Assembly (NCBI GenBank): GCA_964553915.1
Contig: CAZKMM010000001.1
Location: forward strand, 1-52,482
Source: an uncultured bacterium
GTDB lineage: Bacteria > RBG-13-61-14 > DRUE01
Reading direction: 5' to 3'
DNA length: 52,482 nt
Made by a program: the position numbers and the translations under genes. Positions within the stretch are counted from its first letter, which is position 1. Each line of letters begins with the position of its first letter. A model generated the notes under the pieces. It had not been told where the DNA came from. It saw only the letters and a program-made list of their open reading frames with translations, and did not search any database. Below, piece by piece: positions 8,666 to 49,398 of this stretch.

Positions 8666-8676
8666 GAGGCAAAAAA

Positions 8677-12300: not shown

Positions 12301-12311
12301 GAGCAAATTTT

Positions 12312-23499: not shown

Positions 23500-23501
23500 C
23501 T

Positions 23502-23906: not shown

Positions 23907-23915
23907 TCTTCCTCC

Positions 23916-24884: not shown

Positions 24885-24887
24885 CTC

Positions 24888-25352: not shown

Positions 25353-25371
25353 CCCCCATCTCGCCTTCTCC

Positions 25372-25890: not shown

Positions 25891-25891
25891 C

Positions 25892-27316: not shown

Positions 27317-27320
27317 TTTT

Positions 27321-28055
27321 TTATAAAGTAAACTCCTTGCCCAGATAAAATTTCTTTGCCAGCTCGCTTTCTACCAGTTGCTCTGGCGTGCCTTCAATCA
27401 GGCACCTTCCCTGATTGATGATTAAAGCCCGGTCGCAAATCTTCAAGGTCTCACGAACATTATGGTCCGTGATGACCACGCCAATTCCCCGGTCTTTCAG
27501 TCCCCGAACCAGCTCCTTTAAATCTGAAATCGCTAAAGGGTCTATGCCGGTAAAAGGCTCATCAAGGAGAATGAATAAAGGACTTAAAACCAAGCTCCGG
27601 GCTATCTCGCACCTTCTCCGCTCCCCACCAGAAAGGGTTAGAGCAGATTGATGTTCCAGATGCTTGAGCCCAAAATCTTTAAGTAAACCCTCCACCAGCA
27701 TCTTCTGCTCAGAAGGGCTTAAGCCAGAAATTTGAGCAATTGCCTCTAAATTTTCCCGCACGGTCAGTCCCCGAAAAATAGAAGACTCCTGAGGAAGATA
27801 AGTAATTCCCCTGCGTGCCCGTTCCCACATTGGAAGATGGTCAATCCGCTGATGATTTAAATAAATCTCTCCTGCCTCTGCCTGAATCAACCCGACTAAA
27901 AGATAAAAAGTGGTGGTCTTGCCCGCCCCATTGGGACCAAGCAAGCCGAAGACCTCGCCCGATGCCACTTCAAAACTAATCCCATCTACCACTCGTCTCT
28001 TTCGGTAGCTTTTTACCAGTCCAGATACCTTTAGTTTTGCTCTGGAATTATTCAT
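27321..28055 (-). CDS. lptB: LPS export ABC transporter ATPase LptB
   Basis: GPNGAGKTT, LSGGERRRCEIAR, ILLDEPF. Lies between lptA and rpoN. Confidence 0.9.
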   Translation of the reverse strand: MNNSRAKLKVSGLVKSYRKRRVVDGISFEVASGEVFGLLGPNGAGKTTTFYLLVGLIQAEAGEIYLNHQRIDHLPMWERARRGITYLPQESSIFRGLTVRENLEAIAQISGLSPSEQKMLVEGLLKDFGLKHLEHQSALTLSGGERRRCEIARSLVLSPLFILLDEPFTGIDPLAISDLKELVRGLKDRGIGVVITDHNVRETLKICDRALIINQGRCLIEGTPEQLVESELAKKFYLGKEFTL

Positions 28056-36657: not shown

Positions 36658-39312
36658 ATGCGAAAAATCTCTTGGGAAGAAAAACCCTGGCTCTATCCTT
36701 TGGCAGGGTTAATTCTAATCTGGCTTCCATTTATCATCCGTGCTGTCAATGGTCAGACCGCACTGGCTGGACTGCTGGAGTATGATATTGGCTTTCAGTG
36801 GATTCCTTTTAAAGAGTTCACCAGATTCTGCTACCAAAATGGATATTTTCCTCTCTGGTGCCCCTATGTATTTGCCGGGATGCCTTTTTTAGCTTTCAGC
36901 CATACCCAGGTGCTTTATCCATTTGGATTTCTCCTCACTTTTTTTGATTATGCCCGGGCGGTTAATTTTTTCTACCCGATTCATTTGAGCATTGGCTTTC
37001 TGGGGCTGTATCTTTTGCTCCGGAATCTTTCCCTTAGAGCCTTTTCCAGCTTCCTTGCTTCTCTGGGAATGATTTTAAGTGGAAAATTTTTTTATTTCAT
37101 TCATTTTCTTCCTTCTGCCAGTTCTAATTTCTGGGGAGTGTGGTTTTTTTATTTTTTAGTTAAGTTTGCCCGGAAAGAAAAGATTAATTATCTTTTGGGG
37201 GCGAGCTTTTCTCTTGGTCTCCAGTTTTTGGGAGGGGATTTTGAAAGCTCTGCTTATCAGCTTTTTTTTGCTCCCTTTTTTCTTCTTTTTCTCTGGAGCC
37301 GGGAAAAAAGGTTTAATCCAAAGCTCTGGCTAGGCTTTTTTTTCAGTATCTTTTTGGGGCTGGCTCTCGCTGGTGCCCAGTTTCTTCCTTTATTTGAATA
37401 CTCTGGATTTTTTCTGAGAAAAGTAGGTTATACTTTTTCTGGTTTTGAATGGCGAATCCATCCAATTAAGATAAGCTGGGGTTTAATTTTTCCTCTTGAG
37501 GAACTCCATACCATAGAAACGAAAAGTCTGGCATCTTATCTTTATCTAGGGTTATTAGGGATATTTCTCCCGATTTATGGGGCGATTCGGGAAAGGAAAT
37601 GGCTCGGGTTGTTTATTTTATCTCTTATAATTCTGCTTTTTTCTTTTGGAAGCCTTCGGTTTCTGGATTGGGTGGTTTATCATCTTCCTCTTTTAAATCG
37701 TTTTGGGGCTCAGGAGCACAGTTTTTTTCTTTTTCAGATTTTTTGGGCGATTTTAATTGGAGCTGGCTTGGAGCGGGCATTAAAAGATAATCGGGGAATT
37801 TTTTTCTTTTTTATTTTTTCGCTGGCGCTGGTGATGTTCGGAGAAATTTACTTCAAAAACTTGGGCTACCGGAAAATTTTGCTAATTATTCTGTTTTTGG
37901 GAAGCCTGATTTCTTTAAGAAACAAAACCGCTTTCTTGCTTACACCAGGATTGGTGCTTGTGGTTTTTCTGCTTGATATCTATCTACCCGCGTTAAAATA
38001 TCTTCCTAAAAATCCACCAGAGATTTACCAGCTCCCTATGGAGTTAAACCGCTTCCGGCTGGGTCAAAAATCTCCGGTCCGGGCAGTGATTATCTCTCGC
38101 CAGGGAATTAATGACCCGATTTTACTCCATCATCTGGGCTTGAGAATTCATTTAGGGACGATTGACGGCTGGATTACCACTCCACCCTTGAGCTATGCAA
38201 AATTTCTCAATTTGATTGAGCCGAGAAGCGTAATTTTTAAGGATGGGAAAATTAACAGCTATGACTTCAATCATTTTCGGAGGGGAGAGTTTATTCGGGC
38301 AGAAACCCTGCCTCTGATTGACCTGCTTTCTTTAAGATATTTTCTCGTGCGAGGAAAAAACCTGAAATTTGCTTCCCCTTATATCTTTCGGGCAGATGAG
38401 CAGTCTAAAACCGCTGAGCAGGATATAAGCCTCCCACCGAATTCTTATTTCCAGCAAAAGGTTTATATAGAAAAAGGAGATATTTTTAAAACCAAAACCC
38501 CGCTCCAAAAATCCAGCCCATTTTTCCTGCTCCTCTTTCAGAATTCAAAAACCAGCTCCCTGCTTTATGCCCGAGCACCTCTCCAGCCCAAAAATTCTAA
38601 AAAACCCAATTATCTGAAAATCTCCCTTCCCCTGAAAAGCCCCCAGGGTAAAACCGGAATTTTTCTCTTTCTCAATCTGAGCGTTTCCTCTTTTGAGAAA
38701 AAACTGGAACTAGGGGAACCGAGAATAGAAAATTCCAAAAAACGCATTCAAAAAATCTGGAGCAACGAATTTGAAATCTATGAAAATCGCAAAGCCTTTC
38801 CAATGGCTTATATGGTGCATAACTGCGAAGTGTTTGATGACCAGGAGCAAATCCTTGCCCGGCTGAAAAATTCTTACCGCTGGGAGCTGGAAAGAAAAAT
38901 TTATCTCTCCGCTTCCTCTCCCACTGCCAGGGTTATTCAGAAAGTGGCAGAGGAGCTGAAAAACCGGGGAATTGACCCCCTGGAGCTAAAAGAGCCGGTC
39001 TATTTAAAAACAAATCTTCCGGACCGAATGGTTTTTTTAGTCCGGCTGGCTCGTCCGGGCTATCTTTTTTTAAACCATCAATATCTTCCTGGCTGGAAGG
39101 TTTTTGTTGATGGAAGAGAATGGAGGATTGAGCGGGCAGATTATTGCTTTCGGGCGGTTTTTCTGGATAAAGGCACCCACCGGGTAGAATTTCGCTACCA
39201 GCCGGTGGGATTTGCCATTGGATTATATTTCAGCTTTGCCAGTTTCTTGGTTCAATTGATTTTTCTAGGGCTCTGGATAAAAAAAGACCGCGGAAAAATC
39301 CGCGGTCTTTAA
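36658..39312 (+). CDS. Large polytopic membrane protein, YfhO-like (GT-C-type glycosyltransferase candidate)
   Basis: 884 aa with 12 or more hydrophobic segments in the first ~450 residues. A soluble ~380-aa region follows, then a final TM helix (FAIGLYFSFASFLVQLIFLGLWI). This is the YfhO-type architecture; the assignment is by architecture only. Confidence 0.5.
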   Translation: MRKISWEEKPWLYPLAGLILIWLPFIIRAVNGQTALAGLLEYDIGFQWIPFKEFTRFCYQNGYFPLWCPYVFAGMPFLAFSHTQVLYPFGFLLTFFDYARAVNFFYPIHLSIGFLGLYLLLRNLSLRAFSSFLASLGMILSGKFFYFIHFLPSASSNFWGVWFFYFLVKFARKEKINYLLGASFSLGLQFLGGDFESSAYQLFFAPFFLLFLWSREKRFNPKLWLGFFFSIFLGLALAGAQFLPLFEYSGFFLRKVGYTFSGFEWRIHPIKISWGLIFPLEELHTIETKSLASYLYLGLLGIFLPIYGAIRERKWLGLFILSLIILLFSFGSLRFLDWVVYHLPLLNRFGAQEHSFFLFQIFWAILIGAGLERALKDNRGIFFFFIFSLALVMFGEIYFKNLGYRKILLIILFLGSLISLRNKTAFLLTPGLVLVVFLLDIYLPALKYLPKNPPEIYQLPMELNRFRLGQKSPVRAVIISRQGINDPILLHHLGLRIHLGTIDGWITTPPLSYAKFLNLIEPRSVIFKDGKINSYDFNHFRRGEFIRAETLPLIDLLSLRYFLVRGKNLKFASPYIFRADEQSKTAEQDISLPPNSYFQQKVYIEKGDIFKTKTPLQKSSPFFLLLFQNSKTSSLLYARAPLQPKNSKKPNYLKISLPLKSPQGKTGIFLFLNLSVSSFEKKLELGEPRIENSKKRIQKIWSNEFEIYENRKAFPMAYMVHNCEVFDDQEQILARLKNSYRWELERKIYLSASSPTARVIQKVAEELKNRGIDPLELKEPVYLKTNLPDRMVFLVRLARPGYLFLNHQYLPGWKVFVDGREWRIERADYCFRAVFLDKGTHRVEFRYQPVGFAIGLYFSFASFLVQLIFLGLWIKKDRGKIRGL

Positions 39313-39328: not shown

Positions 39329-39676
39329 TTATTTTTTCTCTGGCACCTGCCAGACCACCTGTTTCTTCACATAAGCCGGTGGGGTATATTCCACTACTGG
39401 CTTTAAAGCCTGATGAAAACAGCTCTCCACACAAATATGGCAGTAAATGCATTTAAACGGCTCCCAGGTCACGGTGCGGTTTTCTTCATCCACTTTTATT
39501 GCTTCACTGGGACAGAGCCTCTGGCAATCACCACACAGGTCGCATTTTTCTGAATCGTGCTCAAATCTCCCTCGGATATTCTCAAAAAGAAATGGCTCGC
39601 GCTTTTCAAAGGGATAGCGAATAGTGGCAGGACCGCCAAAGAGATTTTTCAAAATTCTTGGAATCATCCAGGGCAT
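39329..39676 (-). CDS. Hydrogenase 2x[4Fe-4S] ferredoxin-like subunit (EchF/NuoI-like)
   Basis: Two CxxCxxCxxxC motifs (CDLCGDCQRLCP; CIYCHICVESC). 115 aa. GGAGGAG SD. Confidence 0.85.
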   Translation of the reverse strand: MPWMIPRILKNLFGGPATIRYPFEKREPFLFENIRGRFEHDSEKCDLCGDCQRLCPSEAIKVDEENRTVTWEPFKCIYCHICVESCFHQALKPVVEYTPPAYVKKQVVWQVPEKK

Positions 39677-39691: not shown

Positions 39692-40771
39692 TTATCTTTC
39701 CGTGCAGGCAATACACGGGTCTATGCTTAAAGTGATAATCGGCACATCTGCCATCTCACACCCGGGGAGCATTGCCAGAAGCGGGGGAATATTAGCAAAA
39801 GTGGGGGTGCGGATTTTGCACCGCTCCAGGTAGCGAGTTCCATTTCCTTTGACATAATAAGTCAGCTCCCCGCGGGGCTGTTCTATTCTGGAAAATGCCT
39901 CTTTCTCTGGCCAGTGGTCTGGCTTGATAAAAATCTCGGTATCCGGGATTTTACCAATTGCCTCCAAAATCAATTCAATAGACTGCAAAACCTCTTTTGC
40001 TCTGACCAATGCCCGGGCATAACTATCACCGTCTGGTTCCACCACCGGCTCAAAATCCAGCTCGCCATAAGCTGCGTGTCCGGTCAGGCGCATATCCTGA
40101 CGAAGTCCAGAACCCCGAGCTGTGGGACCAACAGCTCCCAGCTTATGAGCATCTTCCTTGCTTAAAACCCCTTTCCCTACACACCTTGCCTTAACCGTGG
40201 GGTCTTTAAGAAGAACTGGAAGCAGTTCCTCAACCTCTGCCTTTATCTCTTTCAATACCTTGGTGAACTCTCCCCGTAGATAATCATTGGGAATATCCTT
40301 ATTCACTCCCCCCACCACACAGGTGGAAAAAATAATCCGATTTCCCGTGGTTTTCTCAATTAAGAAAACACTTTTCTCCCGAATCCTCCAGAATTGCATA
40401 AACAGGCTCTCAAACCCAAAAGCATCTGCTAAAAGTCCGAGCCAGAGAAGATGCGAACGAATCCGATTAAGCTCCGCCCAGATTACCCGTAGATACTTTG
40501 CCCGGGGTGGAACCTCCATCTCCAGTGCCTTTTCCACTGCCTCACAATAAGCCTGCGCATGCATAAAATTGCAAATCCCACAAACATGCTCCACCAGGCG
40601 AGGATTCTTCCAGTAAGCATTCCGTTCACATCCTTTTTCTATCCCCCGATGACAGTATCCAATATTGGGAAGTACCTCCTGAACAATGTCATCTTCTAAA
40701 ACCAGCGTGAGATGAATTGGCTCCGGTAAAACCGGGTGCTGAGGTCCAAACGGCATTACGGTTTTAGGCAT
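39692..40771 (-). CDS. Group 4 [NiFe]-hydrogenase large subunit (EchE/NuoD-like)
   Basis: FGPQHP N-terminus, N-terminal Ni-Fe ligand motif VEHVCGICNFMH, C-terminal motif SIDPCIACTER immediately followed by the stop. 359 aa, about the size of Ech large subunits. Confidence 0.9.
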   Translation of the reverse strand: MPKTVMPFGPQHPVLPEPIHLTLVLEDDIVQEVLPNIGYCHRGIEKGCERNAYWKNPRLVEHVCGICNFMHAQAYCEAVEKALEMEVPPRAKYLRVIWAELNRIRSHLLWLGLLADAFGFESLFMQFWRIREKSVFLIEKTTGNRIIFSTCVVGGVNKDIPNDYLRGEFTKVLKEIKAEVEELLPVLLKDPTVKARCVGKGVLSKEDAHKLGAVGPTARGSGLRQDMRLTGHAAYGELDFEPVVEPDGDSYARALVRAKEVLQSIELILEAIGKIPDTEIFIKPDHWPEKEAFSRIEQPRGELTYYVKGNGTRYLERCKIRTPTFANIPPLLAMLPGCEMADVPIITLSIDPCIACTER

Positions 40772-40786
40772 TTTCCCACTCCTTTC

Positions 40787-42592
40787 TTATTCGTTCCAAT
40801 CACAGCGCCAGCAGCGCTTGGTCTCCTGAGCACTTTGCTCATCAGCAAATCCAAGCTCTACCTCGTTGAAATTCTTTACTCTTTCTTTGGGGTCTAATTT
40901 CTTTACCTCTACCCGAGGAATTTGTTTTCTAGCTTCTTTCATATCCCTTCTCATCACAAACTGCTGGGGATAAGGAACTTCGGGCACATAAAGTCTTCCA
41001 TCTCCACCCAGATATTTATCAATGGCAATGGCAGCTTTTCTTCCATCTGCTACCGCCTCCACCACCGAAGCAGGACCAGTGCGGACATCTCCCCCAGCAA
41101 AAACCCCATCCCGGCTGGTCTTCATACTCATTGCATCTGCCTCAATCCGATTGCCTCTGCCCAGATTAACTCCAAGCTTTTCCGAAACCTCAGGACGCTG
41201 ACCAATGGCAATGACCAAATTGTCCAGCTCCACAGTATATTCGCTTCCTTCAATCGGCACCGGTCTCCTTCTTCCACTCTCGTCCGGCTCCCCTAACTTC
41301 ATCTTGATATTGGTCACTGCCAGTTTATCTCCCTTGCGTTCAATCTTGGTGGGAGCACAGAGAAATTCTATCTTAATTCCTTCTTCAAGCGCCGCTTCCA
41401 CTTCTTCTGGACTTGCCGGCATCTCCGCCCGGGTCCGGCGATAGAAAACTGTAACTTCTTTGGCACCAAGCCGGAGCGCCACCCGAGCCGCATCTATAGC
41501 AGAATTTCCACCACCAACCACTCCGACCTTCTCTCCCACCTCAACCTTTTCTCCCAGATTAACCTTGCGGAGCATAGTCACACAGTTCAAAACCTTTTCA
41601 TCTTCTTCCCCGGGAATGCCCATTTCCACATTTTGATGAGCTCCCAGAGCCAGAAACACCGCATTAAAGCCCTGATTGAAAAGCTCATCCACTGATTCCA
41701 CCTTTTGATTGCACCTGATTTCCACTCCGAGGTCAGTAATGGTTTTAATCTCTGCATCAAGAATATCCTGAGGAAGTCTATAATCAGGTATTCCCACCCT
41801 CAGCATTCCGCCGGGCTTGGGAAGTGCCTCAAAAATCACCACCTGATGACCCAGTTTTGCCAGATAAAAGGCACAGGAAAGTCCCGCAGGACCACTTCCC
41901 ACAATTGCCACTTTTTTGCCGGTATCGGGTTTTTTACTTTTGTCCAGGTCAAAACCAGCTTTATCCGAGGCATATCTCTTGAGCAGGCGAATGCTTAACG
42001 GACTCTGCTCAATGGTCTGCCGGCATTTGGTCTCACAGGGAGCAAAGCATACCCGACCGGAAATTGCTACCAGAGGATTCTGCTGACGAATCAGCTCTAC
42101 CGCCTCTTTATATTTCCCTTCCTCAATCAATCTGATATAACCGGGAATATCAATCCCAGCCGGGCAGGCTTCCCGGCAGGGGGGAATTTTTCGCTCCGGA
42201 GCTGGCTCCTTATCCCAGCTCGGCTTTAAAAGAGGAATTTTAGGGGCTTCCTGATGAAGCAGGAGCTTGCTATCAAAATCTATTGCCATCCCTATAAACT
42301 TCACTCCAAACATATCTTTAATTTCGTTCTCAATTAGCAAGGCAGGAAAGAAAACTGGAGAGATGCTCGGAACCTCTCTTCCTTTTGGCACCTTAATCCG
42401 AATGTTCTCAACCTTATGGTCAATATCAAAATGATAAATGATTTCAAAACCTTCCTCACCCAGGTCCCGACAGCTGGCAGTAACAAACCGAGCTCCTCTA
42501 CCTGCCATCTTCTCTACTTCTGAGATAAACTCTTCTAAATCTACCAAAACCTCCTTCTCTACCCCTATGGTAGATATTCTTTCCTCCCTCAT
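40787..42592 (-). CDS. Fusion protein: EchD/NuoC-like hydrogenase subunit + GltD/SudA-type NAD(P)H-dependent FAD/Fe-S oxidoreductase
   Basis: Residues 1 to ~115 are NuoC/EchD-like (PALLIENEIKDMFGVKFIG). From about residue 135 there is a Cys-rich Fe-S region (CREACP..GRVCFAPCETKC). A FAD fold follows (KKVAIVGSGPAGLSCAFYLAKLG..GGMLRVGIPDYRLP), then an NAD(P)H fold (KVGVVGGGNSAIDAARVAL..TVFYRR). The C-terminus carries CWRC. Confidence 0.8.
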   Translation of the reverse strand: MREERISTIGVEKEVLVDLEEFISEVEKMAGRGARFVTASCRDLGEEGFEIIYHFDIDHKVENIRIKVPKGREVPSISPVFFPALLIENEIKDMFGVKFIGMAIDFDSKLLLHQEAPKIPLLKPSWDKEPAPERKIPPCREACPAGIDIPGYIRLIEEGKYKEAVELIRQQNPLVAISGRVCFAPCETKCRQTIEQSPLSIRLLKRYASDKAGFDLDKSKKPDTGKKVAIVGSGPAGLSCAFYLAKLGHQVVIFEALPKPGGMLRVGIPDYRLPQDILDAEIKTITDLGVEIRCNQKVESVDELFNQGFNAVFLALGAHQNVEMGIPGEEDEKVLNCVTMLRKVNLGEKVEVGEKVGVVGGGNSAIDAARVALRLGAKEVTVFYRRTRAEMPASPEEVEAALEEGIKIEFLCAPTKIERKGDKLAVTNIKMKLGEPDESGRRRPVPIEGSEYTVELDNLVIAIGQRPEVSEKLGVNLGRGNRIEADAMSMKTSRDGVFAGGDVRTGPASVVEAVADGRKAAIAIDKYLGGDGRLYVPEVPYPQQFVMRRDMKEARKQIPRVEVKKLDPKERVKNFNEVELGFADEQSAQETKRCWRCDWNE

Positions 42593-42603: not shown

Positions 42604-43062
42604 TTACTTGGACTCGGCACTTTGCAATTCTTCAGGCGGAACCTTGCCTGCCAGCTTATTCAAGGCATAAATCACCGCATCAATAATTGCCTCAGGACGA
42701 GCTGCACATCCCGGAACATAAACATCCACCGGCACCACCTTGTCCACCCCACCAAGAATATTCGGGCAATTATGAAACACTCCGCCGGTGCAGGCACAGG
42801 TTCCTACCGCAATTACCATCTTTGGCTCAGGAATCTGCTCGTATAAATTTCGCAAGACCCTGGCATTCCGGCGATTTGCCGGACCAGTAATCACCAGCAC
42901 ATCCGCATGCTTGGGATTGCCCATATTCACAATCCCGAACCGCTCCACATCAAAAAGCGGGGTAAGACAAGCGAGAATCTCAATATCACAGCCATTACAA
43001 CTCCCGCAGTCAAAATGCATAATCCAGGGACTTTTTAGCTGAGAAGTCTTAATTAAACCCAT
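42604..43062 (-). CDS. Group 4 [NiFe]-hydrogenase small subunit (EchC/NuoB-like)
   Basis: NuoB-type cluster ligands: FDCGSCNGCDIE, GTCACTGG, VPGCAARPE. 152 aa. Confidence 0.9.
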   Translation of the reverse strand: MGLIKTSQLKSPWIMHFDCGSCNGCDIEILACLTPLFDVERFGIVNMGNPKHADVLVITGPANRRNARVLRNLYEQIPEPKMVIAVGTCACTGGVFHNCPNILGGVDKVVPVDVYVPGCAARPEAIIDAVIYALNKLAGKVPPEELQSAESK

Positions 43063-43064
43063 TT

Positions 43065-43937
43065 TTAACCTCCTCTCTTAAACAGATAAAGAACCGCCAG
43101 GTTTAAAATCACCATTCCTACCCCTACCGCCCAGCTAATTCTTACCATCCAGCGCCAGGTGAGACGAGCGGTAGCATTATCAATAACGATTTCCAGAAGA
43201 AAACATCCCAGAGCAATTAAAATCCCCACCCAGAGGGGATGAGCAAAAAAGATGCTGAGCAAAGCCAGAACCAATATCAGCTCATACCAGTGGGTAAGCT
43301 CTACCATTGCCAGATAGGGTCCGCTGATTTCTGTGGTCACGCCCTTGACCAGTTCTTGGTGAGCATGATGGGAGGTAGAAATATCAAACGGGCTTTTTCT
43401 CATTTTAATGGTCAGAGCTACCAAAAGAGCCAGAAATACCAACGGAAGACTTACCAGCAAAGGTTGGGAATATGCCAGCACCTCTTTTACCCGAAAACTT
43501 CCAGTTTTCAAATAAATCGCCACGACAGATAAAATCAATATCGGCTCATAGCTCAATAACTGCATCATCTCCCGCTGACTGCCTATATAACTGTAAGGAG
43601 AGCGGACACTAAACCCGGCAAGCACCAGACAAATCGTGCCAAAGCCCAGAACAAACACCATCATTAAAAGGTCCTGCCCCACCGCAAAAATTACCAGCGC
43701 CGCCATTGCCATAATCAAATATCCCCAGACCCAGAGAATCTGAAGCTTATGGGCAACAAATCCTTTTTTCCCAAAGAGTTTGAACAGGTCATAGAAAGGC
43801 TGAATCAAAGGTGGACCCACCCTGCCCTGAAGCCGGGCGGTAAGCCTGCGGTCTATTCCGCTTAAAATTCCTCCAACAATCGGCGCCCCCACCAGGGCAA
43901 CAATTGCGGAAATCAGCATTTTTACTCCTTCGCTCAT
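43065..43937 (-). CDS. Hydrogenase membrane subunit (EchB/NuoH/HycD-like)
   Basis: 290 aa with about 8 TM segments. NuoH-like N-terminal region (RRLTARLQGRVGPPLIQPFYDLFKLF). Confidence 0.8.
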   Translation of the reverse strand: MSEGVKMLISAIVALVGAPIVGGILSGIDRRLTARLQGRVGPPLIQPFYDLFKLFGKKGFVAHKLQILWVWGYLIMAMAALVIFAVGQDLLMMVFVLGFGTICLVLAGFSVRSPYSYIGSQREMMQLLSYEPILILSVVAIYLKTGSFRVKEVLAYSQPLLVSLPLVFLALLVALTIKMRKSPFDISTSHHAHQELVKGVTTEISGPYLAMVELTHWYELILVLALLSIFFAHPLWVGILIALGCFLLEIVIDNATARLTWRWMVRISWAVGVGMVILNLAVLYLFKRGG

Positions 43938-43959: not shown

Positions 43960-45918
43960 TTACAAAAGAACTATCCCCAAACCAATAGCCAGCCCGAGCA
44001 AAAGCAGTCCCACCAGGTTGGAGCTTAAGTTAACCAACCGCTCGGAGCGGGTTTCTCCAAAGTAAAATCCCCGAAAGGTCTGCTCCATCGGGGTATCTGC
44101 AATACTGGAAAACCTGGGTTCATTGCCAATATTTTCTCCGCACATATAAGCAGGTCTAACCCTCTCACTCTGAACCCGGATAATAAAAGCAGGAATGAAC
44201 AAGAACAAGAAAGCAAAAAGAGCCAAAGGCCAGGTAGCAAATTCACCCGCTACCTTGCCCCCGAGCATCACCTGAATATTAAAAGCAACCACATTTATCA
44301 CATCCTGATACCCTGCCTGAGTCATATAGGGAACAACCAGCCGGTCCACCACCGGAGCGAAAAAGGCGCTTAAAACCACTATTCCAATTAACAACACCAA
44401 AAGACTGAAGCTGTAAAAGAATCCGAGCTTTTCTATTTTAAGCCTCTGGTCCGTGGGGCGAAGTGCAATAATCCTTCCCATCCATTTAATCCAGAAGATG
44501 ATGGTCACACTGCTTCCCAGGGTAAGCAGAAGAATTATGATAAACGCCCACCTGCTGGACATTGCCGGCACCGCCTCTATTGCCAGCCATTTGCTTACCA
44601 GCACTCCCAGAGGAGGTACCAGCATTGCCAGAGCTCCCATTAAGGTAATGGTGGTGAGCATAGGCAATCTCTCCATCAAGCCTTCCATCGCTTCTATATC
44701 TCTGCTTCCAATCTTGTTCTCAATTGCTCCCACGCAAAGGAAGAGAAGTCCCTTGGTCATTGCGTGGAAAATAAGTAAAGCGAGCCCGGCCGCAATTGCC
44801 AGGGAGCTATTGATTCCTGCGCACATAATCATCAATCCCAAGGAACCGATGGTAGAATAAGCCAGCACGCTCTTGGCATTGGTCCTCATCAAAGCCATTG
44901 TTGCGGTGACCAGAAGGACAAATGCTCCATAAACCGCTATTACCAGACTCAGGGCGGTTCCCTGAAAACCAGGAGCAAGCCGAAATACCAGATATACTCC
45001 TGCCTTAACCATCGTGGAGGAGTGAAGCAGGGCACTAACTGGAGTCGGAGCAACCATTGCTCCTAACAGCCAGCTCTGGAAGGGCACCTGAGCACTCTTG
45101 ATAACACCACCCAGAACCAAAAGAGCAATTGGAAGTAAAAGAGCTGTGCTTGCTCCGCTCTTTGCTAAAGCCTGAAGAGCCAGGGTCTGGGGACTGGTGT
45201 ATTTATAAGCCAGAATCATTGCCACCACCATTGCCAGCCCACCAATCAGGTTCATCCAGAGAGCACGAAGGGCATTATTGATCGCCTCATCAGTCAGGTC
45301 ATGAAGGATTAACAAATAACAGCAAGCGGTGGTCACTTCCCAGAAGAAATAGAGCCAGATAAGATGATTAGAAAAGACCAGAGCGTTCATTGCTCCCAAA
45401 AAAAGCACCAGCCAGAGAAAAAATCTGGGCTGACGGGATTTTTCCAGATGAAGATGCTCCTCATGGTCAGGCATATAATTGAGAGCATAGAGGACAATCA
45501 TAGAACCAACAATACAAATTACCAGCGCCATTATTATGCTCAGCCAGTCAATATAAAACAAAGGCTCAACCGCTTCTTCCTTTACCAAGCCAAATTCCAG
45601 CCAGGCTAAAAGCCCGATCTGAGCCAAACTAAGCAAGCTGATCAGCCAGCTCTTCCGTCTGATACCAATATAAAGGAAGTAAACTAAAAGCAGATAATCC
45701 AAAACCACCACAATCCAGTTCCAGATATGAAATCCGCTTTCGCCCAGACTCAACTCTATCGGTCCCTTGCTTAATAAAATCAGGCTCAGGGCAATTAAAA
45801 ATAAAGATTCCAGCACCACAATTAAAATCCGCAAAGCCCTGGGACGAATCAAATAAAGAATAATCCCTGTAATAATGGGAAGTAAGATTAAAAGCCCTAC
45901 CAACGCTACATTGCTCAT
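43960..45918 (-). CDS. Hydrogenase antiporter-like membrane subunit (EchA/NuoL/HyfB-like)
   Basis: About 650 aa, polytopic, with Mrp/NuoL-type core (LHSSTMVKAGVYL, AYSTIGSLG). I use ATG 45918 (AGGAGG at 45927-45932, 8-nt spacing); the track adds one TTG codon. Confidence 0.8.
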   Translation of the reverse strand: MSNVALVGLLILLPIITGIILYLIRPRALRILIVVLESLFLIALSLILLSKGPIELSLGESGFHIWNWIVVVLDYLLLVYFLYIGIRRKSWLISLLSLAQIGLLAWLEFGLVKEEAVEPLFYIDWLSIIMALVICIVGSMIVLYALNYMPDHEEHLHLEKSRQPRFFLWLVLFLGAMNALVFSNHLIWLYFFWEVTTACCYLLILHDLTDEAINNALRALWMNLIGGLAMVVAMILAYKYTSPQTLALQALAKSGASTALLLPIALLVLGGVIKSAQVPFQSWLLGAMVAPTPVSALLHSSTMVKAGVYLVFRLAPGFQGTALSLVIAVYGAFVLLVTATMALMRTNAKSVLAYSTIGSLGLMIMCAGINSSLAIAAGLALLIFHAMTKGLLFLCVGAIENKIGSRDIEAMEGLMERLPMLTTITLMGALAMLVPPLGVLVSKWLAIEAVPAMSSRWAFIIILLLTLGSSVTIIFWIKWMGRIIALRPTDQRLKIEKLGFFYSFSLLVLLIGIVVLSAFFAPVVDRLVVPYMTQAGYQDVINVVAFNIQVMLGGKVAGEFATWPLALFAFLFLFIPAFIIRVQSERVRPAYMCGENIGNEPRFSSIADTPMEQTFRGFYFGETRSERLVNLSSNLVGLLLLGLAIGLGIVLL

Positions 45919-46052
45919 CAATCTTTCCTCCTAATTTGTTCTTTTTGGGTTTCCTGACCCATAAATATAATTGTATAGATATATTTGGATATTGGAATAT
46001 AAAGAAATGAATAAAAAGGGGCTAAAAATTTTTGCTTGCTTGAAAACTTTGT

Positions 46053-46067: not shown

Positions 46068-46142
46068 TTCTAACTGACTGCCAGAGAATTTTAGGTTAAC
46101 TGCTCGGAAGTCTTGTTAAAAATTTACTACATTTTTTCAAAT

Positions 46143-46171
46143 TTGTCAAGAACAAAATCATTGAATATAAT
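46143..46171 (+). promoter_or_regulatory. Candidate sigma70-type promoter for the alpha/beta hydrolase gene
   Basis: TTGTCA (46143-46148), 17-nt spacer, perfect TATAAT (46166-46171). GGGGG SD about 5 nt before the ATG at 46204. Confidence 0.5.
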
Positions 46172-46203: not shown

Positions 46204-47418
46204 ATGAAAAAATTTCATTTAATAGTCTTGGCTTTTATTGTGGCTTTTTCATGGGTCAGTACTGCTCATAAAAAAGAGAAAAAATCTTTGCTCGGAATTC
46301 GGATTTATGAATTTGAAATTGAAGGAAGACCGGCATCTGTTGCAGTCTGGTATCCTGCCATTGATAAAGGCGAAGGATTATTTGATTACAATAAGTTAAC
46401 CAAAGGAAGTGCCTATCTGGATGCCACTCCAGACCGCTCTCAGGCACCGTATCCTTTAATTGTCTTTTCCCATGGAATGGGCGGATGCGGGTTTCAATCG
46501 GTTTTTTATGTGGAGAACCTCGCCCGGGCAGGATATGTGGTAGGAGCGATGGACCATAAAGATTCCGGGATGTGTCTAATGCAGGGAAAACCCAAAATTA
46601 CTCAGGGAAAGGTTTTACTCGCTTTTCTGAAGGGAGGGGGAAACCTTACCAAAACCGTCACCCTCCTGTTTAAAGACCAGGTAAGGGATGTAGACTTCAC
46701 ATATCGTCCCCGAGAATTAAAGGAACTAATTGACCACCTGCTTGAGCTTAATCAGACCGACCCGGTACTCAAAGGTCTTTTCTCCCCGGAAAAAATCGGT
46801 GCCACCGGACACTCCTTAGGAGGATTTACAGCCCTGGCTATTGCCGGGGGAGAGTTTGACTGTCAGAGTCCGGAAAAATATAACCCGGAGCTATGTGCCC
46901 GGGTGGAGCAGGCACTTGCTCATCGGGAAGAGATAAGCGAAGAGAATATGGAGCTGATAAGAGAGCCAGATGTTATCTGTTGCCTTGAGCAATATAAAGG
47001 CAAGAAGGTTAGCTTTAAAGACCCAAGAGTAGATGCGGTTTTACCTCTTGGTCCTGCGGTTTTCTTCCCGGAGGGAGCTTTTAAAGAGGTATCTATTCCC
47101 ATAATGATTATTACCGGCTGGGGGAAATTTGAGGTTCCTTTTGAGCCTATCCAGAGAGTATATGATGAGCTGGCTGGTCCCAGGTATCTGCTCCATCTCA
47201 AAAAAGTGGACCATATGACCATCACCGATATGGCTTTAAAAATCCCCTTTGCCCGACTGGTGCTTCCCGGATACCGCTGGAAGTATAAAATGAAAAAGCA
47301 AATCTATGAAAACTATTCCCGAGGCTTTTTTGATGCCTATCTGAAAGGAGACCAGAAGGCAAAAGAATATATTAAAGAGGCACAGTACCCGATTATGGAG
47401 CTTCAGGCAAGCCCATAA
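46204..47418 (+). CDS. Secreted alpha/beta hydrolase (PAF-acetylhydrolase / dienelactone hydrolase-like lipase-esterase)
   Basis: Signal peptide MKKFHLIVLAFIVAFSWVSTA. YPLIVFSHGMGG oxyanion region, GHSLGG nucleophile elbow, late VDHM His. Confidence 0.65.
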   Translation: MKKFHLIVLAFIVAFSWVSTAHKKEKKSLLGIRIYEFEIEGRPASVAVWYPAIDKGEGLFDYNKLTKGSAYLDATPDRSQAPYPLIVFSHGMGGCGFQSVFYVENLARAGYVVGAMDHKDSGMCLMQGKPKITQGKVLLAFLKGGGNLTKTVTLLFKDQVRDVDFTYRPRELKELIDHLLELNQTDPVLKGLFSPEKIGATGHSLGGFTALAIAGGEFDCQSPEKYNPELCARVEQALAHREEISEENMELIREPDVICCLEQYKGKKVSFKDPRVDAVLPLGPAVFFPEGAFKEVSIPIMIITGWGKFEVPFEPIQRVYDELAGPRYLLHLKKVDHMTITDMALKIPFARLVLPGYRWKYKMKKQIYENYSRGFFDAYLKGDQKAKEYIKEAQYPIMELQASP

Positions 47419-47427
47419 GAGGATAAA

Positions 47428-47455
47428 TTGACAATCTTTTAAGATAAGATAAATT
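47428..47455 (+). promoter_or_regulatory. Candidate sigma70-type promoter close to the NhaC-family gene start
   Basis: TTGACA (47428-47433), 16-nt spacer, TAAATT (47450-47455), 11 nt, then the ATG at 47467 with no Shine-Dalgarno sequence. Confidence 0.25.
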
Positions 47456-47466
47456 ATTCCCGCCAG

Positions 47467-49398
47467 ATGCGGTATAAGTGGAAAAATTATCTGTGCTGGG
47501 GAGTGATTTTTTGGTTTTTCCCGGTTTGCGGGCTTGCCAGCTCCTTGAAAATTCAGGCTCCCAAGCTCTGGGTCAGCTCGGTTCCCTTTACCCTTGAATT
47601 AGAAAATCTTTCTAACCAAACCAGGGACTTTAAGCTTTTCTGGGGAGAGGAGCTGATTTTTCAGGGAAAGCTGGAGCCAAAAGAGAAAAAAGAGCTGAAA
47701 ATCTCCATTGAAAAAACCGGGAAAAAAGAGCTAATTTTAAAAGCCCAAGGCGAAGAAAAAATTTTGCCTTTTCGCCAGATACCCGGTCTGCTGAGCATTA
47801 TCCCTCCACTGTTAGCAATTGGGCTTTCTTTAATCTTCCGACAGGTGCTGGCAAGCCTCTGGCTGAGTATTTTTGTCGGAGCTTTAATTGTCTTTGACTA
47901 CAAGCCTCTTTCCGCCTTTGCCCGCACCATAGATTATTATCTGCTCAATTCTATGGCAGGAAAAGAAAACAGCCTGATGCTTTTATTTATTCTCTTTATG
48001 GGGGGATTGGTTGGAGTAATTTCCAAAGGCGGAGGAATTCACGGTCTGGTGGAAAAGGTGAGCAGGTGGGCAACCTCTGCCCGGAGAGGACAATTTGCCA
48101 CCTGGCTCCTTGGGCTGTTCATATTTTTTGATGATTATGCCAATACCATCATTGTTGGTAATGCGATGCGTCCGATCACGGACAAATTAAGAATCAGCCG
48201 GGAAAAGCTCTCTTATCTGGTGGATACTACCGCAGCTCCGGTTGCCAGCATCTTTCCCATCTCCACCTGGATTGGCTATGAGGTGGGATTGATTAACTCT
48301 GCCTTTCAGAGCCTGGGAATTAAAGCCAATGGATTTTTATGGTTTTTACAGTCCATTCCTTATCGTTTCTATCCGATTTTTAGCCTGATTATGCTTTTAT
48401 TTGTAATTGCCCTGAAAAGAGATTTAGGTCCGATGCACCGGGCAGAAAGCCGAGCCCGAAAAGAAGGAAAGGTGCTAAGGGACAATGCCCAGCCAATGGC
48501 AAATCTGGAGCCAGAACTGCTCAAGCCAGTCTCGGAACAAAAACTTCGCTGGTATAATGCCCTGGTCCCGATTCTTGCGGTAATTATTGTCACCTTTGTT
48601 GGGCTCTGGTTTGATGGGGTAAAGAATTTAGGAGTCTCTGGCTATCAGGAATTTCTGAAAAAATCTCAGGAACTGGGACCGCTCTGGGGAAAAATTTATC
48701 TGGTAGGAATGGTTTACAGCCAGGCAGGTGCAAACACGGTTTTAAGCTGGGCAAGTCTTTGCGGAGGAGCACTTGCGGTGGTGATGGTGGTTTCTCAGCG
48801 AATTATGAACCTGGCTCAGGCAATGGATGCCTGGCTGGGCGGTGCTAAATCTATGGTGATTGCGGTTTTAATTCTGCTTTTTGCCTGGGGGCTGGGCTCA
48901 GTCTGTGCAGAGCTTCATACCGCAGAATGGATTACCCATCAGCTTAAAGGAGTGCTCAACCCCCGGCTGGTGCCGGTGCTGGTTTTTATGGTTGCCTGCT
49001 TGATTAGCTTTTCCACCGGAACCAGCTATGGAACAATGGCGATTTTAATTCCTCTGGTAATTCCTATTGCTCATCATTTAAGCCTGCTGGCAAATTTTAA
49101 CCAGAGCCAGTATCATATAATAATGGTAGGGGCGATTTCATCAGTTCTGGCAGGAGCGGTATTTGGAGACCATTGCTCACCCATCAGCGATACCACCATT
49201 ATGTCCAGTATGGCGAGCAACGCAGACCATATTGACCATGTTCGCACCCAGTTGCCATACGCTTTAACTGTTGCCGGGATGGGAATGCTGGTAGGAGATA
49301 TTCCCACTGCTTATGGAATGCCTCCCTGGGCAAGCTGGATAATAGGGAGTATCATTCTTCTGGTAATTCTGGTAATCTTTGGTAAAAAAATAGAATAA
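47467..49398 (+). CDS. NhaC-family Na+/H+ antiporter-like transporter with an N-terminal extracytoplasmic extension
   Basis: 643 aa with at least 11 hydrophobic segments from about residue 105. The first ~100 residues are a signal/TM segment plus a Lys/Glu-rich beta-type domain. Family assignment is from overall pattern only. Confidence 0.55.
   Translation: MRYKWKNYLCWGVIFWFFPVCGLASSLKIQAPKLWVSSVPFTLELENLSNQTRDFKLFWGEELIFQGKLEPKEKKELKISIEKTGKKELILKAQGEEKILPFRQIPGLLSIIPPLLAIGLSLIFRQVLASLWLSIFVGALIVFDYKPLSAFARTIDYYLLNSMAGKENSLMLLFILFMGGLVGVISKGGGIHGLVEKVSRWATSARRGQFATWLLGLFIFFDDYANTIIVGNAMRPITDKLRISREKLSYLVDTTAAPVASIFPISTWIGYEVGLINSAFQSLGIKANGFLWFLQSIPYRFYPIFSLIMLLFVIALKRDLGPMHRAESRARKEGKVLRDNAQPMANLEPELLKPVSEQKLRWYNALVPILAVIIVTFVGLWFDGVKNLGVSGYQEFLKKSQELGPLWGKIYLVGMVYSQAGANTVLSWASLCGGALAVVMVVSQRIMNLAQAMDAWLGGAKSMVIAVLILLFAWGLGSVCAELHTAEWITHQLKGVLNPRLVPVLVFMVACLISFSTGTSYGTMAILIPLVIPIAHHLSLLANFNQSQYHIIMVGAISSVLAGAVFGDHCSPISDTTIMSSMASNADHIDHVRTQLPYALTVAGMGMLVGDIPTAYGMPPWASWIIGSIILLVILVIFGKKIE

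What the first reader, a model, noticed from the sequence alone, without database searches (positions are those of the whole stretch)
40787..42592. EchD/NuoC-like subunit fused in frame to a GltD/SudA-type NAD(P)H oxidoreductase inside an Ech-type [NiFe]-hydrogenase operon
Canonical Ech hydrogenases have six genes: A NuoL-like, B NuoH-like, C NuoB-like, D small NuoC-like, E large subunit, F 2x[4Fe-4S]. They use ferredoxin. This operon has the same order, but the fourth gene is 601 aa instead of about 120 aa.

Domain content of the fourth gene:
- Residues 1 to ~115 carry the NuoC/EchD signature (LIENEIKDMFGVKFIG).
- A Cys-rich Fe-S region follows (CREACP..GRVCFAPCETKC).
- Then a FAD dinucleotide fold (VAIVGSGPAGL..GGMLRVGIPDYRLP).
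- Then a second NAD(P)H fold (VGVVGGGNSAID..TVFYRR).
- The last three modules define the glutamate-synthase small-subunit / SudA / NfnB family.
- The usual first CxxC of GltD proteins is not obvious. A CxxC sits at the extreme C-terminus (CWRC) and might substitute for it.

A covalent link would attach a pyridine-nucleotide site to the peripheral arm of an ion-translocating hydrogenase. This suggests NAD(P)H-linked H2 evolution driven by the ion gradient, or H2-driven NAD(P)+ reduction coupled to ion pumping. I am not aware of a characterised enzyme with this architecture.
Basis: partly seen in the sequence, partly recalled or inferred. Interest (0 to 1): 0.85.

Follow-up and report, generated by a model that had tools for sequence, protein, structure and literature searches.

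The report
Ech hydrogenase with built-in NADPH module
A six-gene membrane-bound, ion-pumping [NiFe] hydrogenase operon of the Ech type carries, fused to its small EchD subunit, a complete NADPH-oxidising flavoprotein module, so it probably links NADPH, hydrogen gas and the membrane ion gradient directly; I found no description of this combination, although it occurs in many uncultured bacteria and archaea.

Summary
ORF 40787-42592 (-) encodes 601 aa. It has a NuoC/EchD domain (res 16-123), a low-confidence linker, and a GltD-type module with intact FAD and NADPH motifs. It is the fourth gene of an echA-F operon.

The fusion is not an artefact:
- The identical protein occurs on two other assemblies.
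- 109 clusters share the architecture.
- The same six-gene context occurs in Dehalococcoidia, Planctomycetota and archaeal MAGs.

New here: the GltD module is circularly permuted. The C-terminal tail is the missing first part of the Fe-S domain (Pfam Fer4_20 positions 1-28).

The closest solved structures are the non-bifurcating NADPH-input modules of NfnA (Bfu-type NfnABC) and StnC. They share the permutation and the Lys ligand (K205 here).

The large subunit is an ordinary Ech type, 59-63% identical to EchE of isolates. Surveys would therefore score this enzyme as ferredoxin-coupled.

Best explanation (inferred, untested): a reversible NADPH:H+/H2 oxidoreductase coupled to ion translocation.

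Nine literature searches found no description of it. I class it as a new variant of a known kind. Interest 0.7.

The parts
46121..46149 (-). Promoter-like site upstream of echA (TTGACA-17-TAAATT)
   Evidence: 10 of 12 matches. This is a consensus match only; the count of such sites in the region is not above the shuffle expectation.
43960..45921 (-). echA: NuoL/Mrp-antiporter-like membrane subunit (653 aa)
   Evidence: Proton_antipo_M E 5.3e-52, Proton_antipo_N E 6.5e-10.
43065..43937 (-). echB: NuoH-like membrane subunit (290 aa; 284 aa in another gene call)
   Evidence: NADHdh E 2.5e-44.
42604..43062 (-). echC: NuoB-like hydrogenase small subunit (152 aa), one [4Fe-4S] site
   Evidence: Oxidored_q6 E 3.7e-33; NuoB subfamily NF005012 147 bits against a cut-off of 116.
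40787..42592 (-). echD~gltD fusion gene (601 aa), the finding itself
42224..42547 (-). EchD/NuoC-like domain (res 16-123)
   Evidence: Complex1_30kDa E 4.8e-12; a profile of this domain finds mostly stand-alone EchD proteins of 86-200 aa; the best-scoring stand-alone EchD, P0122, lies in a canonical six-gene Ech operon.
42188..42223 (-). Linker between the EchD domain and the GltD module (res 124-135)
   Evidence: AlphaFold2 pLDDT below 50 for res 115-125; this stretch is poorly conserved in the family alignment.
41957..42187 (-). Fe-S domain, main part (res 136-212; Fer4_20 profile positions 29-108), carrying C139, C143, C182, C186, C190 and K205
   Evidence: all five Cys and K205 are invariant in 27 family members; by alignment with C. 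saccharolyticus NfnA, its A7 cluster ligands C108, C147, C151 and K170 correspond to C143, C182, C186 and K205.
41042..41917 (-). FAD- and NADPH-binding Rossmann domains (res 226-517): GSGPAG, GGM..GIP.YRLP, GGGNSAID, YRR, GGD
   Evidence: Pyr_redox_2 E 3.2e-39 over the full profile; the motifs are invariant. YRR[TS]..EMPA is shared with the NADPH-using NfnA, StnC and NfnB.
40799..40882 (-). Permuted first segment of the Fe-S domain (res 571-598; Fer4_20 profile positions 1-28), ending in C594-W-R-C597
   Evidence: the tail alone gives Fer4_20 positions 1-28, E 5.6e-4, the only family hit; it aligns to NfnB residues 3-46. E577, E579, E590, R593, C594, W595 and C597 are invariant.
39692..40771 (-). 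echE: [NiFe] large subunit (359 aa) with CGIC (N-terminal) and DPCIAC (C-terminal) metal-ligand motifs
   Evidence: best solved relatives are MbhL (6cfw_L, 223 bits) and HycE (7z0s_E); 59-63% identity to Ech large subunits of isolates.
39329..39676 (-). echF: NuoI-like 2x[4Fe-4S] subunit (115 aa)
   Evidence: Fer4 family hits; two CxxCxxCxxxC motifs.
39283..39310 (-). Intrinsic-terminator-like hairpin after echF (12-bp stem, 7 GC pairs, T-run)

Best explanation
The locus encodes a six-subunit Ech-type, membrane-bound [NiFe] hydrogenase with a pyridine-nucleotide input/output module built in. The small peripheral subunit EchD is extended at its C-terminus, through a flexible linker, by a circularly permuted GltD-type module.

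Proposed electron path:
1. NADPH donates a hydride to FAD.
2. Electrons leave one at a time through a proximal [4Fe-4S] cluster (C143, C182, C186, K205).
3. They pass to a distal [4Fe-4S] cluster (C139, C190, C594, C597).
4. They continue through the two clusters of the NuoI-like EchF and the single cluster of the NuoB-like EchC.
5. They reach the [NiFe] site of EchE, where protons are reduced to H2. The path can also run in reverse.

The EchD domain acts as the anchor that places the module on the peripheral arm. EchA and EchB couple the redox reaction to H+ or Na+ translocation.

Thermodynamics, from standard textbook potentials (NADP+/NADPH -320 mV, H+/H2 -414 mV):
- NADPH to H2 costs about +18 kJ/mol under standard conditions. 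H2 evolution therefore needs either a very low H2 partial pressure or energy from the ion gradient.
- H2-driven NADP+ reduction could pump about one ion.

What is shown: the architecture, the cofactor motifs, the permutation, and the conservation of the gene and operon. What is inferred: the wiring between subunits, the NADPH specificity, the direction of the reaction, and the ion coupling.
For: Domains and motifs:
- Domain content is above the curated cut-offs.
- All seven Fe-S cysteines, K205, and the FAD and NADPH motifs are invariant in 27 members that are 47-57% identical.

Permutation:
- It is shown three ways.

Solved relatives:
- The closest solved structures by sequence and fold are NfnA of C. 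saccharolyticus and T. sibiricus NfnABC, and StnC of S. ovata.
- In those enzymes this module binds FAD and NADPH, does not bifurcate, and feeds a chain of [4Fe-4S] clusters (PMC10482914).
- Its proximal cluster has 3 Cys + Lys (PMC11829005).
- The YRR[TS]..EMPA NADPH-site motif is shared with these NADPH enzymes.

Conservation:
- The operon echA-B-C-[D~GltD]-E-F is conserved in Dehalococcoidia, Planctomycetota and Odinarchaeia-labelled MAGs.
- One of these loci has hypA and a cobW-family (HypB-like) gene next to it.
- The NiFe ligands are intact.

Precedent for the wiring:
- The nearest non-EchD relatives of the module (P0110-P0113, 56-58% identical) have it inserted inside NuoI, between NuoI's two cluster motifs, in a complex-I-like operon.
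- This shows that the module's distal cluster can work next to NuoI/EchF-type clusters.

Other:
- No NfnA/PyrK-like or NuoE/F-like partner gene lies in any of the operons examined.
- A purified Ech translocates protons (PMC9356269 abstract).
Against: - No biochemical data exist for any member.
- Inter-subunit cluster distances were not modelled; only the single chain could be predicted.
- EchF, the usual ferredoxin entry point, is retained. Ferredoxin may therefore still be a partner, and NADPH may not be the only one.
- NADPH-to-H2 is uphill under standard conditions, so the physiological direction is open.
- All carriers are uncultured.
- NADPH versus NADH specificity rests on motif conservation only.
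Confidence: 0.6

Rival explanations
1. The complex is a three-partner redox hub. It keeps ferredoxin as a partner at EchF and adds NADPH at the GltD module. It would work either as a membrane-bound ferredoxin:NADP+ oxidoreductase with H2 as an overflow valve, or as a confurcating hydrogenase that needs both reduced ferredoxin and NADPH to make H2.
For: - EchF, with its two ferredoxin-type clusters, is retained unchanged in size.
- The large subunit is not separable from canonical ferredoxin-dependent Ech enzymes.
- GltD-family flavins can bifurcate in NfnB (PMC10482914).
- A three-branched group 4b complex with an NADPH-oxidising branch has been proposed from structure predictions (PMC13582414).
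Against: - The module carries the Lys ligand of the non-bifurcating StnC/NfnA(Bfu) type, not the Glu of bifurcating NfnB.
- No second acceptor branch is encoded in the operons (no NfnA/PyrK-like subunit and no HydB/C-like subunit).
- A simple shared Fe-S wire does not by itself give energetic coupling between two donors.
Confidence: 0.25
2. The flavoprotein module uses a different physiological substrate, such as NADH, or a sulfur compound as once proposed for SudA. Alternatively it serves mainly as a redox-sensing or regulatory appendage rather than as the main electron entry.
For: - Specificity was not tested.
- GltD-family modules serve many partners.
- Some family members carry an N-terminal response-regulator receiver domain, which hints at regulation.
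Against: - The second Rossmann fold keeps the invariant YRR motif shared with the solved NADPH-binding relatives.
- A full set of ligands for two clusters plus the FAD motifs is strictly conserved, as expected for a catalytic wire.
- The receiver domain is an extra addition found in a minority of members.
Confidence: 0.1
3. The fusion is an artefact: a frameshift, a mis-assembly, or a missed stop codon that joins echD to a separate gltD-like gene.
For: One related contig (L089) shows the gene split into a 78-aa and a 499-aa ORF.
Against: - That split is itself a frameshift inside the EchD domain, not a natural gene boundary.
- The identical 601-aa protein comes from separate assemblies.
- 109 sequence clusters from bacteria and archaea share the continuous architecture.
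Confidence: 0.01

Closest known systems
Ech-type (group 4e) energy-converting [NiFe] hydrogenase (EchABCDEF of Methanosarcina, Desulfovibrio, Thermoanaerobacter kivui)
   Same: - Same six genes in the same order.
- Same subunit sizes for A, B, C, E and F.
- Large subunit 59-63% identical to the EchE of isolates such as Thermacetogenium phaeum and Fundidesulfovibrio soli.
- The EchD domain scores best against stand-alone EchD proteins from canonical operons.
   Different: - EchD is 601 aa instead of about 120-140 aa.
- It carries FAD, an NADPH site and two [4Fe-4S] clusters.
- Canonical Ech uses only ferredoxin.
GltD-like NADPH module of StnC (Sporomusa ovata StnABC, 8oh5) and NfnA (Bfu-type NfnABC, 9bov and 9n5u)
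   Same: - Best sequence and fold matches (E 1e-112 to 1e-166; Foldseek probability 1.0).
- Same circular permutation, with the RCxxC tail after the flavin domains.
- Same 3 Cys + Lys proximal cluster.
- Same NADPH-site motif.
   Different: - In those proteins the module is embedded in a large NuoG/FdhF-like soluble subunit and feeds a HydBC-like bifurcating FMN module.
- Here it hangs on EchD of a membrane hydrogenase.
- No NuoE/F/G-like genes are present.
Complex-I-like / Mbx-like operons with a gltD-related flavoprotein in the NuoI position (noted for Thermotoga and proteobacteria by Degli Esposti 2015, PMC4758237; example L093 here)
   Same: - The same permuted GltD module (56-58% identical) is grafted onto the peripheral arm of a complex-I-family membrane enzyme.
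   Different: - There the module is inserted inside NuoI.
- The NuoD homologue has lost the NiFe cysteines, so the enzyme is not a hydrogenase.
- The membrane arm has many more subunits.
NfnAB/NfnSL (bifurcating NADH-dependent ferredoxin:NADP+ oxidoreductase), GltD and dihydropyrimidine dehydrogenase N-terminal domain
   Same: - Same fold and cofactor set: FAD, NADPH and 2x[4Fe-4S].
   Different: - Canonical, non-permuted order with the first CxxC at the N-terminus.
- In NfnB a Glu (in DPD, from memory, a Gln) replaces the Lys.
- NfnB needs the NfnA/S partner, which is absent here.
NAD(P)-coupled soluble [NiFe] hydrogenases (groups 3b and 3d) and respiratory complex I
   Same: - They couple H2 (group 3) or a membrane ion pump (complex I) to pyridine nucleotides through a flavin and an Fe-S wire.
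   Different: - Group 3 enzymes are soluble and not ion-coupled.
- Complex I uses NuoEFG with FMN and reduces quinone, not protons.
- The enzyme here would combine the two properties using an unrelated flavoprotein module.

Membership tests
Ech-type (group 4e) energy-converting [NiFe] hydrogenase | Six co-transcribed genes in the order NuoL-like, NuoH-like, NuoB-like, NuoC-like, large subunit, 2x[4Fe-4S] subunit | tested here: met
   The genes are on one strand with gaps of 2-22 nt. A terminator-like hairpin follows echF.
Ech-type (group 4e) energy-converting [NiFe] hydrogenase | Large subunit keeps both CxxC pairs that bind Ni-Fe | tested here: met
   CGICNFMH near the N-terminus and DPCIACTER at the C-terminus.
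Ech-type (group 4e) energy-converting [NiFe] hydrogenase | Large subunit groups by sequence with known Ech large subunits | tested here: met
   59-63% identity over the full length to Ech large subunits of isolates; JGI names the relatives 'ech hydrogenase subunit E'; in a neighbour-joining tree it interleaves with canonical Ech. A formal HydDB classification was not run.
Ech-type (group 4e) energy-converting [NiFe] hydrogenase | EchD is a small, cofactor-free subunit | tested here: not met
   601 aa, with Fer4_20 and Pyr_redox_2 domains appended.
Ech-type (group 4e) energy-converting [NiFe] hydrogenase | Reduced ferredoxin is the electron donor; H2 evolution is coupled to ion translocation | not testable with these tools
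   Needs biochemistry.
GltD / NfnB / DPD-type Fe-S flavoprotein (Fer4_20 + Pyr_redox_2) | FAD dinucleotide fold and a second NADPH Rossmann fold with intact motifs | tested here: met
   Pyr_redox_2 over profile positions 1-291 of 291. GxGxxG, GG, R272, GGGN, YRR and GD are invariant.
GltD / NfnB / DPD-type Fe-S flavoprotein (Fer4_20 + Pyr_redox_2) | Ligands for two [4Fe-4S] clusters | tested here: met
   seven invariant Cys plus K205, assigned by alignment to solved relatives. Cluster binding itself was not tested.
GltD / NfnB / DPD-type Fe-S flavoprotein (Fer4_20 + Pyr_redox_2) | First CxxC of the Fe-S domain lies N-terminal to the flavin domains (canonical order) | tested here: not met
   the main Fer4_20 hit starts at profile position 29; positions 1-28 are at res 571-598.
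StnC / NfnA(Bfu)-type NADPH input module | Permuted order with the RCxxC tail after the flavin domains | tested here: met
   res 137-598 align colinearly with 9bov_A 102-567 and 8oh5_C 102-566.
StnC / NfnA(Bfu)-type NADPH input module | Lysine as fourth ligand of the cluster next to FAD | tested here: met
   K205 aligns with K170 of 9bov_A and 8oh5_C. It is invariant in the family. NfnB has Glu there.
StnC / NfnA(Bfu)-type NADPH input module | Embedded in a NuoG/FdhF-like subunit and partnered with HydB/HydC-like bifurcating subunits | tested here: not met
   there is no such domain or gene in the operon or its flanks.
NfnAB/NfnSL bifurcating transhydrogenase | Glu ligand on the proximal cluster, and a PyrK-like [2Fe-2S]/FAD small subunit | tested here: not met
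   Lys instead of Glu; no NfnA/S-like gene nearby.
Respiratory complex I (NADH:quinone oxidoreductase) | NuoEFG N-module, a NuoD without NiFe ligands, and about 11-14 subunits | tested here: not met
   six genes, NiFe ligands present, no NuoE/F/G.

The most novel reading that the evidence does not exclude
This is a previously unrecognised subclass of energy-converting hydrogenase: a reversible, ion-translocating H2:NADP+ oxidoreductase. In effect it is a minimal 'complex I that reduces protons instead of quinone'. It gained its pyridine-nucleotide module independently of NuoEFG, by fusing a permuted, plug-in GltD cassette onto EchD.

It would let anaerobes either make NADPH from H2 while conserving energy, or spend the ion gradient to vent NADPH electrons as H2. 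It is spread by horizontal transfer across bacterial and archaeal phyla. It is currently hidden inside 'ferredoxin-coupled group 4e' in hydrogenase surveys.
Probability: 0.45. Interest if true: 0.85.

Novelty: new variant of a known kind. Interest (0 to 1): 0.7.

Why it matters
Energy-converting hydrogenases are thought to work only with low-potential ferredoxin, or with formate or CO modules. The known NAD(P)-linked [NiFe] hydrogenases are soluble and conserve no energy.

What a membrane-coupled NADPH:H2 enzyme would do:
- Add a new coupling site to anaerobic bioenergetics.
- Change how NADPH/H2 balance is modelled in sediments, digesters and syntrophic communities.

Consequence for surveys:
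- The large subunit looks like ordinary Ech, so metagenomic hydrogenase typing would score these enzymes as ferredoxin-coupled.

Evolutionary interest:
- It offers a living parallel to the step by which an Ech-like ancestor of complex I acquired a pyridine-nucleotide module.
- It shows that the permuted GltD module is a reusable 'NADPH plug'. It is found inside NuoG-like proteins, inside NuoI, next to NuoF-like genes, and here on EchD.

Practical interest:
- A compact six-gene H2/NADPH enzyme is attractive for cofactor regeneration.

Tried and rejected
1. Genome-collection scan with an alignment of the N-terminal 237 residues.
- In nearly all of them the best match covers only the GltD part (residues ~125-237). 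In a few it reaches back to residue 87-113.
- It found no fusion loci and gave no taxonomy for the family.

2. P0112 (499 aa, no NuoC domain) looked like a natural split version. The locus has a frameshift inside the EchD domain, so it is a broken fusion, not a two-gene variant.

3. P0367, an Ech large subunit, shares its longest-contig length with L093. I therefore suspected that the NuoI::GltD operon was also a hydrogenase. The NuoD of L093 lacks the NiFe cysteines and is a different protein.

4. Test of whether fusion-linked large subunits or GltD modules form clean clades.
- Neighbour-joining trees without support values show them interleaved with canonical Ech and with NuoI- or NuoG-linked modules.
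- The question of one or several origins is unresolved.

5. Nine literature searches found no paper describing this fusion. Several full-text look-ups also found none. Subscription-only literature was not searchable.

6. No hyp maturation genes, tRNAs or taxonomic markers lie in the window.
- MetK relatives with names are Deltaproteobacteria/Thermodesulfobacteriota MAGs and Deferrisoma, at only 66-70% identity.
- The host phylum stays uncertain.

7. Cluster-to-cluster distances could not be measured. The structure tool returns no coordinates and predicts single chains only.
Full report
**1. The observation**

ORF and ribosome-binding site:
- An uninterrupted ORF of 601 codons runs from 42592 to 40787 on the minus strand.
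- AAGGAGGA lies about 6 nt before its ATG.

Pfam places three domains above their curated cut-offs:
- Complex1_30kDa (NuoC/EchD), residues 16-123, E 4.8e-12.
- Fer4_20, residues 136-212, E 1.2e-23.
- Pyr_redox_2, residues 226-517, E 3.2e-39, covering the whole profile.

NCBIfam's best models are the 'putative NADPH-dependent glutamate synthase small subunit' families PRK12814 and PRK12771. The matches run to residue 599 and score below those families' equivalog cut-offs.

Operon:
- The five neighbouring genes on the same strand are NuoL-like (653 aa), NuoH-like (290 aa), NuoB-like (152 aa), a [NiFe] large subunit (359 aa, with CGIC and DPCIAC intact) and a 2x[4Fe-4S] protein (115 aa).
- The gaps are 2-22 nt. 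This is exactly the echA-F order, with the fusion in the echD slot.
- A promoter-like site (46149-46121) and a strong terminator-like hairpin (39310-39283) bracket the six genes.

**2. Not an artefact**

- The identical 601-aa protein was called on two other assemblies: an ENA contig of 52.4 kb that matches the window in gene order, and a 5.6-kb Logan contig from a sequencing run.
- Of the 120 best database hits, the first 109 clusters (90% identity level) carry the same three Pfam domains in one protein of about 592 aa.
- In an alignment of 27 members, 47-57% identical to the first sequence, the junction is continuous.
- The same six-gene context surrounds the fusion in a Dehalococcoidia MAG, a Planctomycetes MAG and an archaeal MAG labelled Odinarchaeia. 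The Dehalococcoidia locus is followed by NifU-like, hypA and cobW-family (HypB-like) genes.
- Named carriers are all MAGs: Planctomycetota, Ca. Brocadiia, Dehalococcoidia/-ales, Clostridia, Chloroflexota, Ca. Hecatellales B24 and Nitrososphaeria. They are annotated only as 'FAD-dependent oxidoreductase', 'hypothetical' or similar.
- One apparent split version (P0112) is a frameshifted copy.

**3. Anatomy of the fusion**

AlphaFold2, using the family alignment:
- The model is confident: mean pLDDT 87, pTM 0.76.
- It shows an alpha/beta EchD domain, a low-confidence linker (residues 115-125, pLDDT below 50), and a GltD-type body.

Circular permutation of the Fe-S domain:
- The main Fer4_20 hit covers only profile positions 29-108.
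- The last 54 residues, scanned alone, hit Fer4_20 positions 1-28 and nothing else (E 5.6e-4).
- A profile of the family aligns its C-terminal 40 positions (..F.EVELG...EA.RCWRC) to residues 3-46 of NfnB in 4ylf_B and 5jca_L. The body aligns to NfnB 46-462.

Closest solved relatives:
- They have the same permuted order and align colinearly with residues 137-598.
- They are NfnA of the Bfu-type NfnABC of Caldicellulosiruptor saccharolyticus (9bov_A), NfnA of Thermococcus sibiricus (9n5u_A), and StnC of Sporomusa ovata (8oh5_C).

Cluster ligands:
- In C. saccharolyticus NfnA the cluster next to FAD is held by C108, C147, C151 and K170 (PMC11829005).
- By alignment these are C143, C182, C186 and K205 here. 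All are invariant in the family.
- NfnB, whose flavin bifurcates, has Glu at the Lys position (PMC10482914).
- The remaining invariant cysteines C139, C190, C594 and C597 would hold the distal cluster. This assignment follows the DPD/NfnB pattern, which I recall from memory and did not test.

Flavin and nucleotide motifs:
- The FAD motifs (GSGPAG, GG, R272, GD) and the NADPH-fold motifs (GGGNSAID, YRR) are invariant.
- YRR[TS]..EMPA is shared with the NADPH-using relatives.

**4. Where the parts come from**

EchE:
- It is 59-63% identical over its full length to Ech large subunits of isolates: Thermacetogenium phaeum, Fundidesulfovibrio soli and Anaerobacterium chartisolvens.
- In a simple neighbour-joining tree, fusion-linked and canonical large subunits interleave.
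- By its catalytic subunit the enzyme is therefore an ordinary Ech.

EchD domain:
- A profile of this domain, searched against 1.84 billion representative proteins, gives 1812 hits.
- Among the best 150, only five are long proteins. The rest are stand-alone EchD proteins of 86-200 aa.
- The best-scoring stand-alone EchD, P0122, lies in a canonical six-gene Ech operon with the same subunit sizes.

GltD module:
- Its nearest non-EchD relatives are P0110-P0113 and P0120, 55-58% identical.
- They are NuoI homologues in which the permuted module is inserted between the two CxxCxxCxxxCP motifs.
- One example lies in a multi-gene Nuo-like operon whose NuoD has lost the NiFe cysteines.
- This matches the remark in PMC4758237 that in mbx-like operons of Thermotoga and proteobacteria NuoI is replaced by a gltD-related flavoprotein.
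- Other relatives have NuoG-type N-terminal Fe-S domains upstream of the module or are fused to NuoF-like domains, and one lies beside NuoF/NuoE-like, formate-dehydrogenase-like and Wood-Ljungdahl genes.
- The permuted module has both termini at its distal cluster. It behaves as an insertable NADPH 'plug' that has been attached repeatedly to complex-I-family and related Fe-S proteins.

**5. How it most likely works**

Shown:
- An Ech-type hydrogenase operon with intact NiFe and Fe-S ligands.
- A covalently attached module with all the residues needed for FAD, NADPH and two [4Fe-4S] clusters.
- Strict conservation of this arrangement across distant lineages.

Inferred:
- The electron path is NADPH, FAD, proximal cluster, distal cluster, EchF clusters, EchC cluster, NiFe site. 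It is reversible.
- The EchD domain serves as the docking anchor.
- EchA and EchB couple the reaction to ion movement. A purified Ech has been shown to translocate protons (PMC9356269 abstract).
- The NuoI-inserted relatives show that this module's distal cluster functions directly beside NuoI-type clusters. This makes hand-over to EchF plausible.
- The Lys ligand and the absence of any NfnA/PyrK-like or HydB/C-like partner argue for simple, non-bifurcating, one-electron delivery, as described for StnC.

Energetics, from standard potentials (-320 mV for NADP+/NADPH, -414 mV for H+/H2):
- NADPH-driven H2 evolution costs about +18 kJ/mol under standard conditions.
- It becomes favourable only at H2 pressures of the order of 10 Pa with a reduced NADP pool, or if driven by the ion gradient.
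- The reverse reaction could pump roughly one ion.
- Which direction dominates probably depends on the host. It cannot be decided here.

The main rival is that ferredoxin still docks at EchF, so the complex connects three redox partners. I give that 0.25.

**6. Known or new**

- Nine full-text searches and several targeted readings found no paper describing an EchD~GltD fusion or an NADPH-linked Ech.
- The nearest published ideas are three: the gltD-like flavoprotein in mbx-like operons (PMC4758237); a predicted NADPH-oxidising SHI-beta/gamma branch on some group 4b hydrogenases (PMC13582414); and the StnC/NfnA structures.
- The search covers only open-access papers and bioRxiv. A description in subscription literature cannot be excluded.
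- I class the finding as a new variant of a known kind: an Ech hydrogenase with a new electron-input module. It is widespread but unannotated.

**7. Limits**

- No biochemistry exists for any member.
- No multimer model was possible, and no cultured carrier is known.
- The trees are neighbour-joining without support values.
- The genome-collection scan was unproductive.
- The host of the window is an uncultured diderm bacterium: it has LptD and an lptB-rpoN-hpf-ptsN-hprK cluster. The MetK relatives that carry names are Deltaproteobacteria/Thermodesulfobacteriota MAGs and Deferrisoma, at only 66-70% identity.

Noticed in passing
L090:4538-6721 (P0044); also P0003, P0022, P0023: Some family members carry an additional N-terminal response-regulator receiver domain (PF00072) in front of EchD~GltD, giving proteins of 716-727 aa. 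A separate response-regulator gene lies just upstream of that operon. This suggests that the hydrogenase subunit itself may be controlled by phosphorylation.
   Followed up: partly
L093:5259-7142 (P0111) and its operon L093:1666-10047: This is a NuoI homologue with the whole permuted GltD module inserted between its two CxxCxxCxxxCP motifs. It lies in a complex-I-like operon with NuoA, B, C, D, H, J, K and L-like genes. The NuoD there lacks the NiFe cysteines. It is probably an NADPH-dependent complex-I-like enzyme with an unknown acceptor.
   Followed up: partly
L091:1-3675: Upstream of a canonical six-gene Ech operon lie four regulatory genes: a protein combining [FeFe]-hydrogenase-like domains (Fe_hyd_lg_C) with histidine-kinase domains, two response-regulator proteins, and a GAF protein. 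They look like an H2- or redox-sensing regulatory system for Ech.
   Followed up: no
window 6119-13073 (+): A cluster of cyclic-nucleotide signalling genes: a CHASE2-adenylate/guanylate cyclase (848 aa), a protein with two cNMP-binding domains, a GAF-HD phosphohydrolase, a Crp-like cNMP-binding regulator, and a class-II cAMP phosphodiesterase-like metallo-beta-lactamase-fold protein.
   Followed up: no
window 21376-28055 (-): A conserved lptB (ABC ATPase) - rpoN - hpf - ptsN (EIIA-Ntr) - hprK cluster, followed by PTS enzyme I. Together with LptD at 13084-15270, this marks the host as a diderm bacterium with a nitrogen-PTS-type regulatory system.
   Followed up: no
window 46204-52053 (+): Three genes are transcribed divergently from the hydrogenase operon: a PAF-acetylhydrolase-like hydrolase, an NhaC-type Na+/H+ antiporter (643 aa), and an 884-aa methyl-accepting chemotaxis protein with a periplasmic binding domain. 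The antiporter next to an ion-translocating hydrogenase could interconvert H+ and Na+ gradients. This is adjacency only.
   Followed up: no
P0093, P0094 (alignment A1 columns 744-761); P0107 (columns 581-600): Some members have lineage-specific insertions. P0093 and P0094 have about 18 residues (KREVEVSIVDGSVSVSV) in the segment between the flavin domains and the Fe-S tail. P0107 has a short tandem duplication inside the NADPH domain.
   Followed up: no
window 17637-18845 (-): An Old-Yellow-Enzyme-type NADH:flavin oxidoreductase (402 aa) lies next to S-adenosylhomocysteine hydrolase and SAM synthetase. It has no evident link to the hydrogenase operon.
   Followed up: no
P0001 versus window 40787-42592: The JGI cluster representative P0001 is listed as 100% identical but differs from the window protein at three positions: K343R, K298N and V381I. 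This indicates closely related population variants of the same gene in different samples.
   Followed up: no
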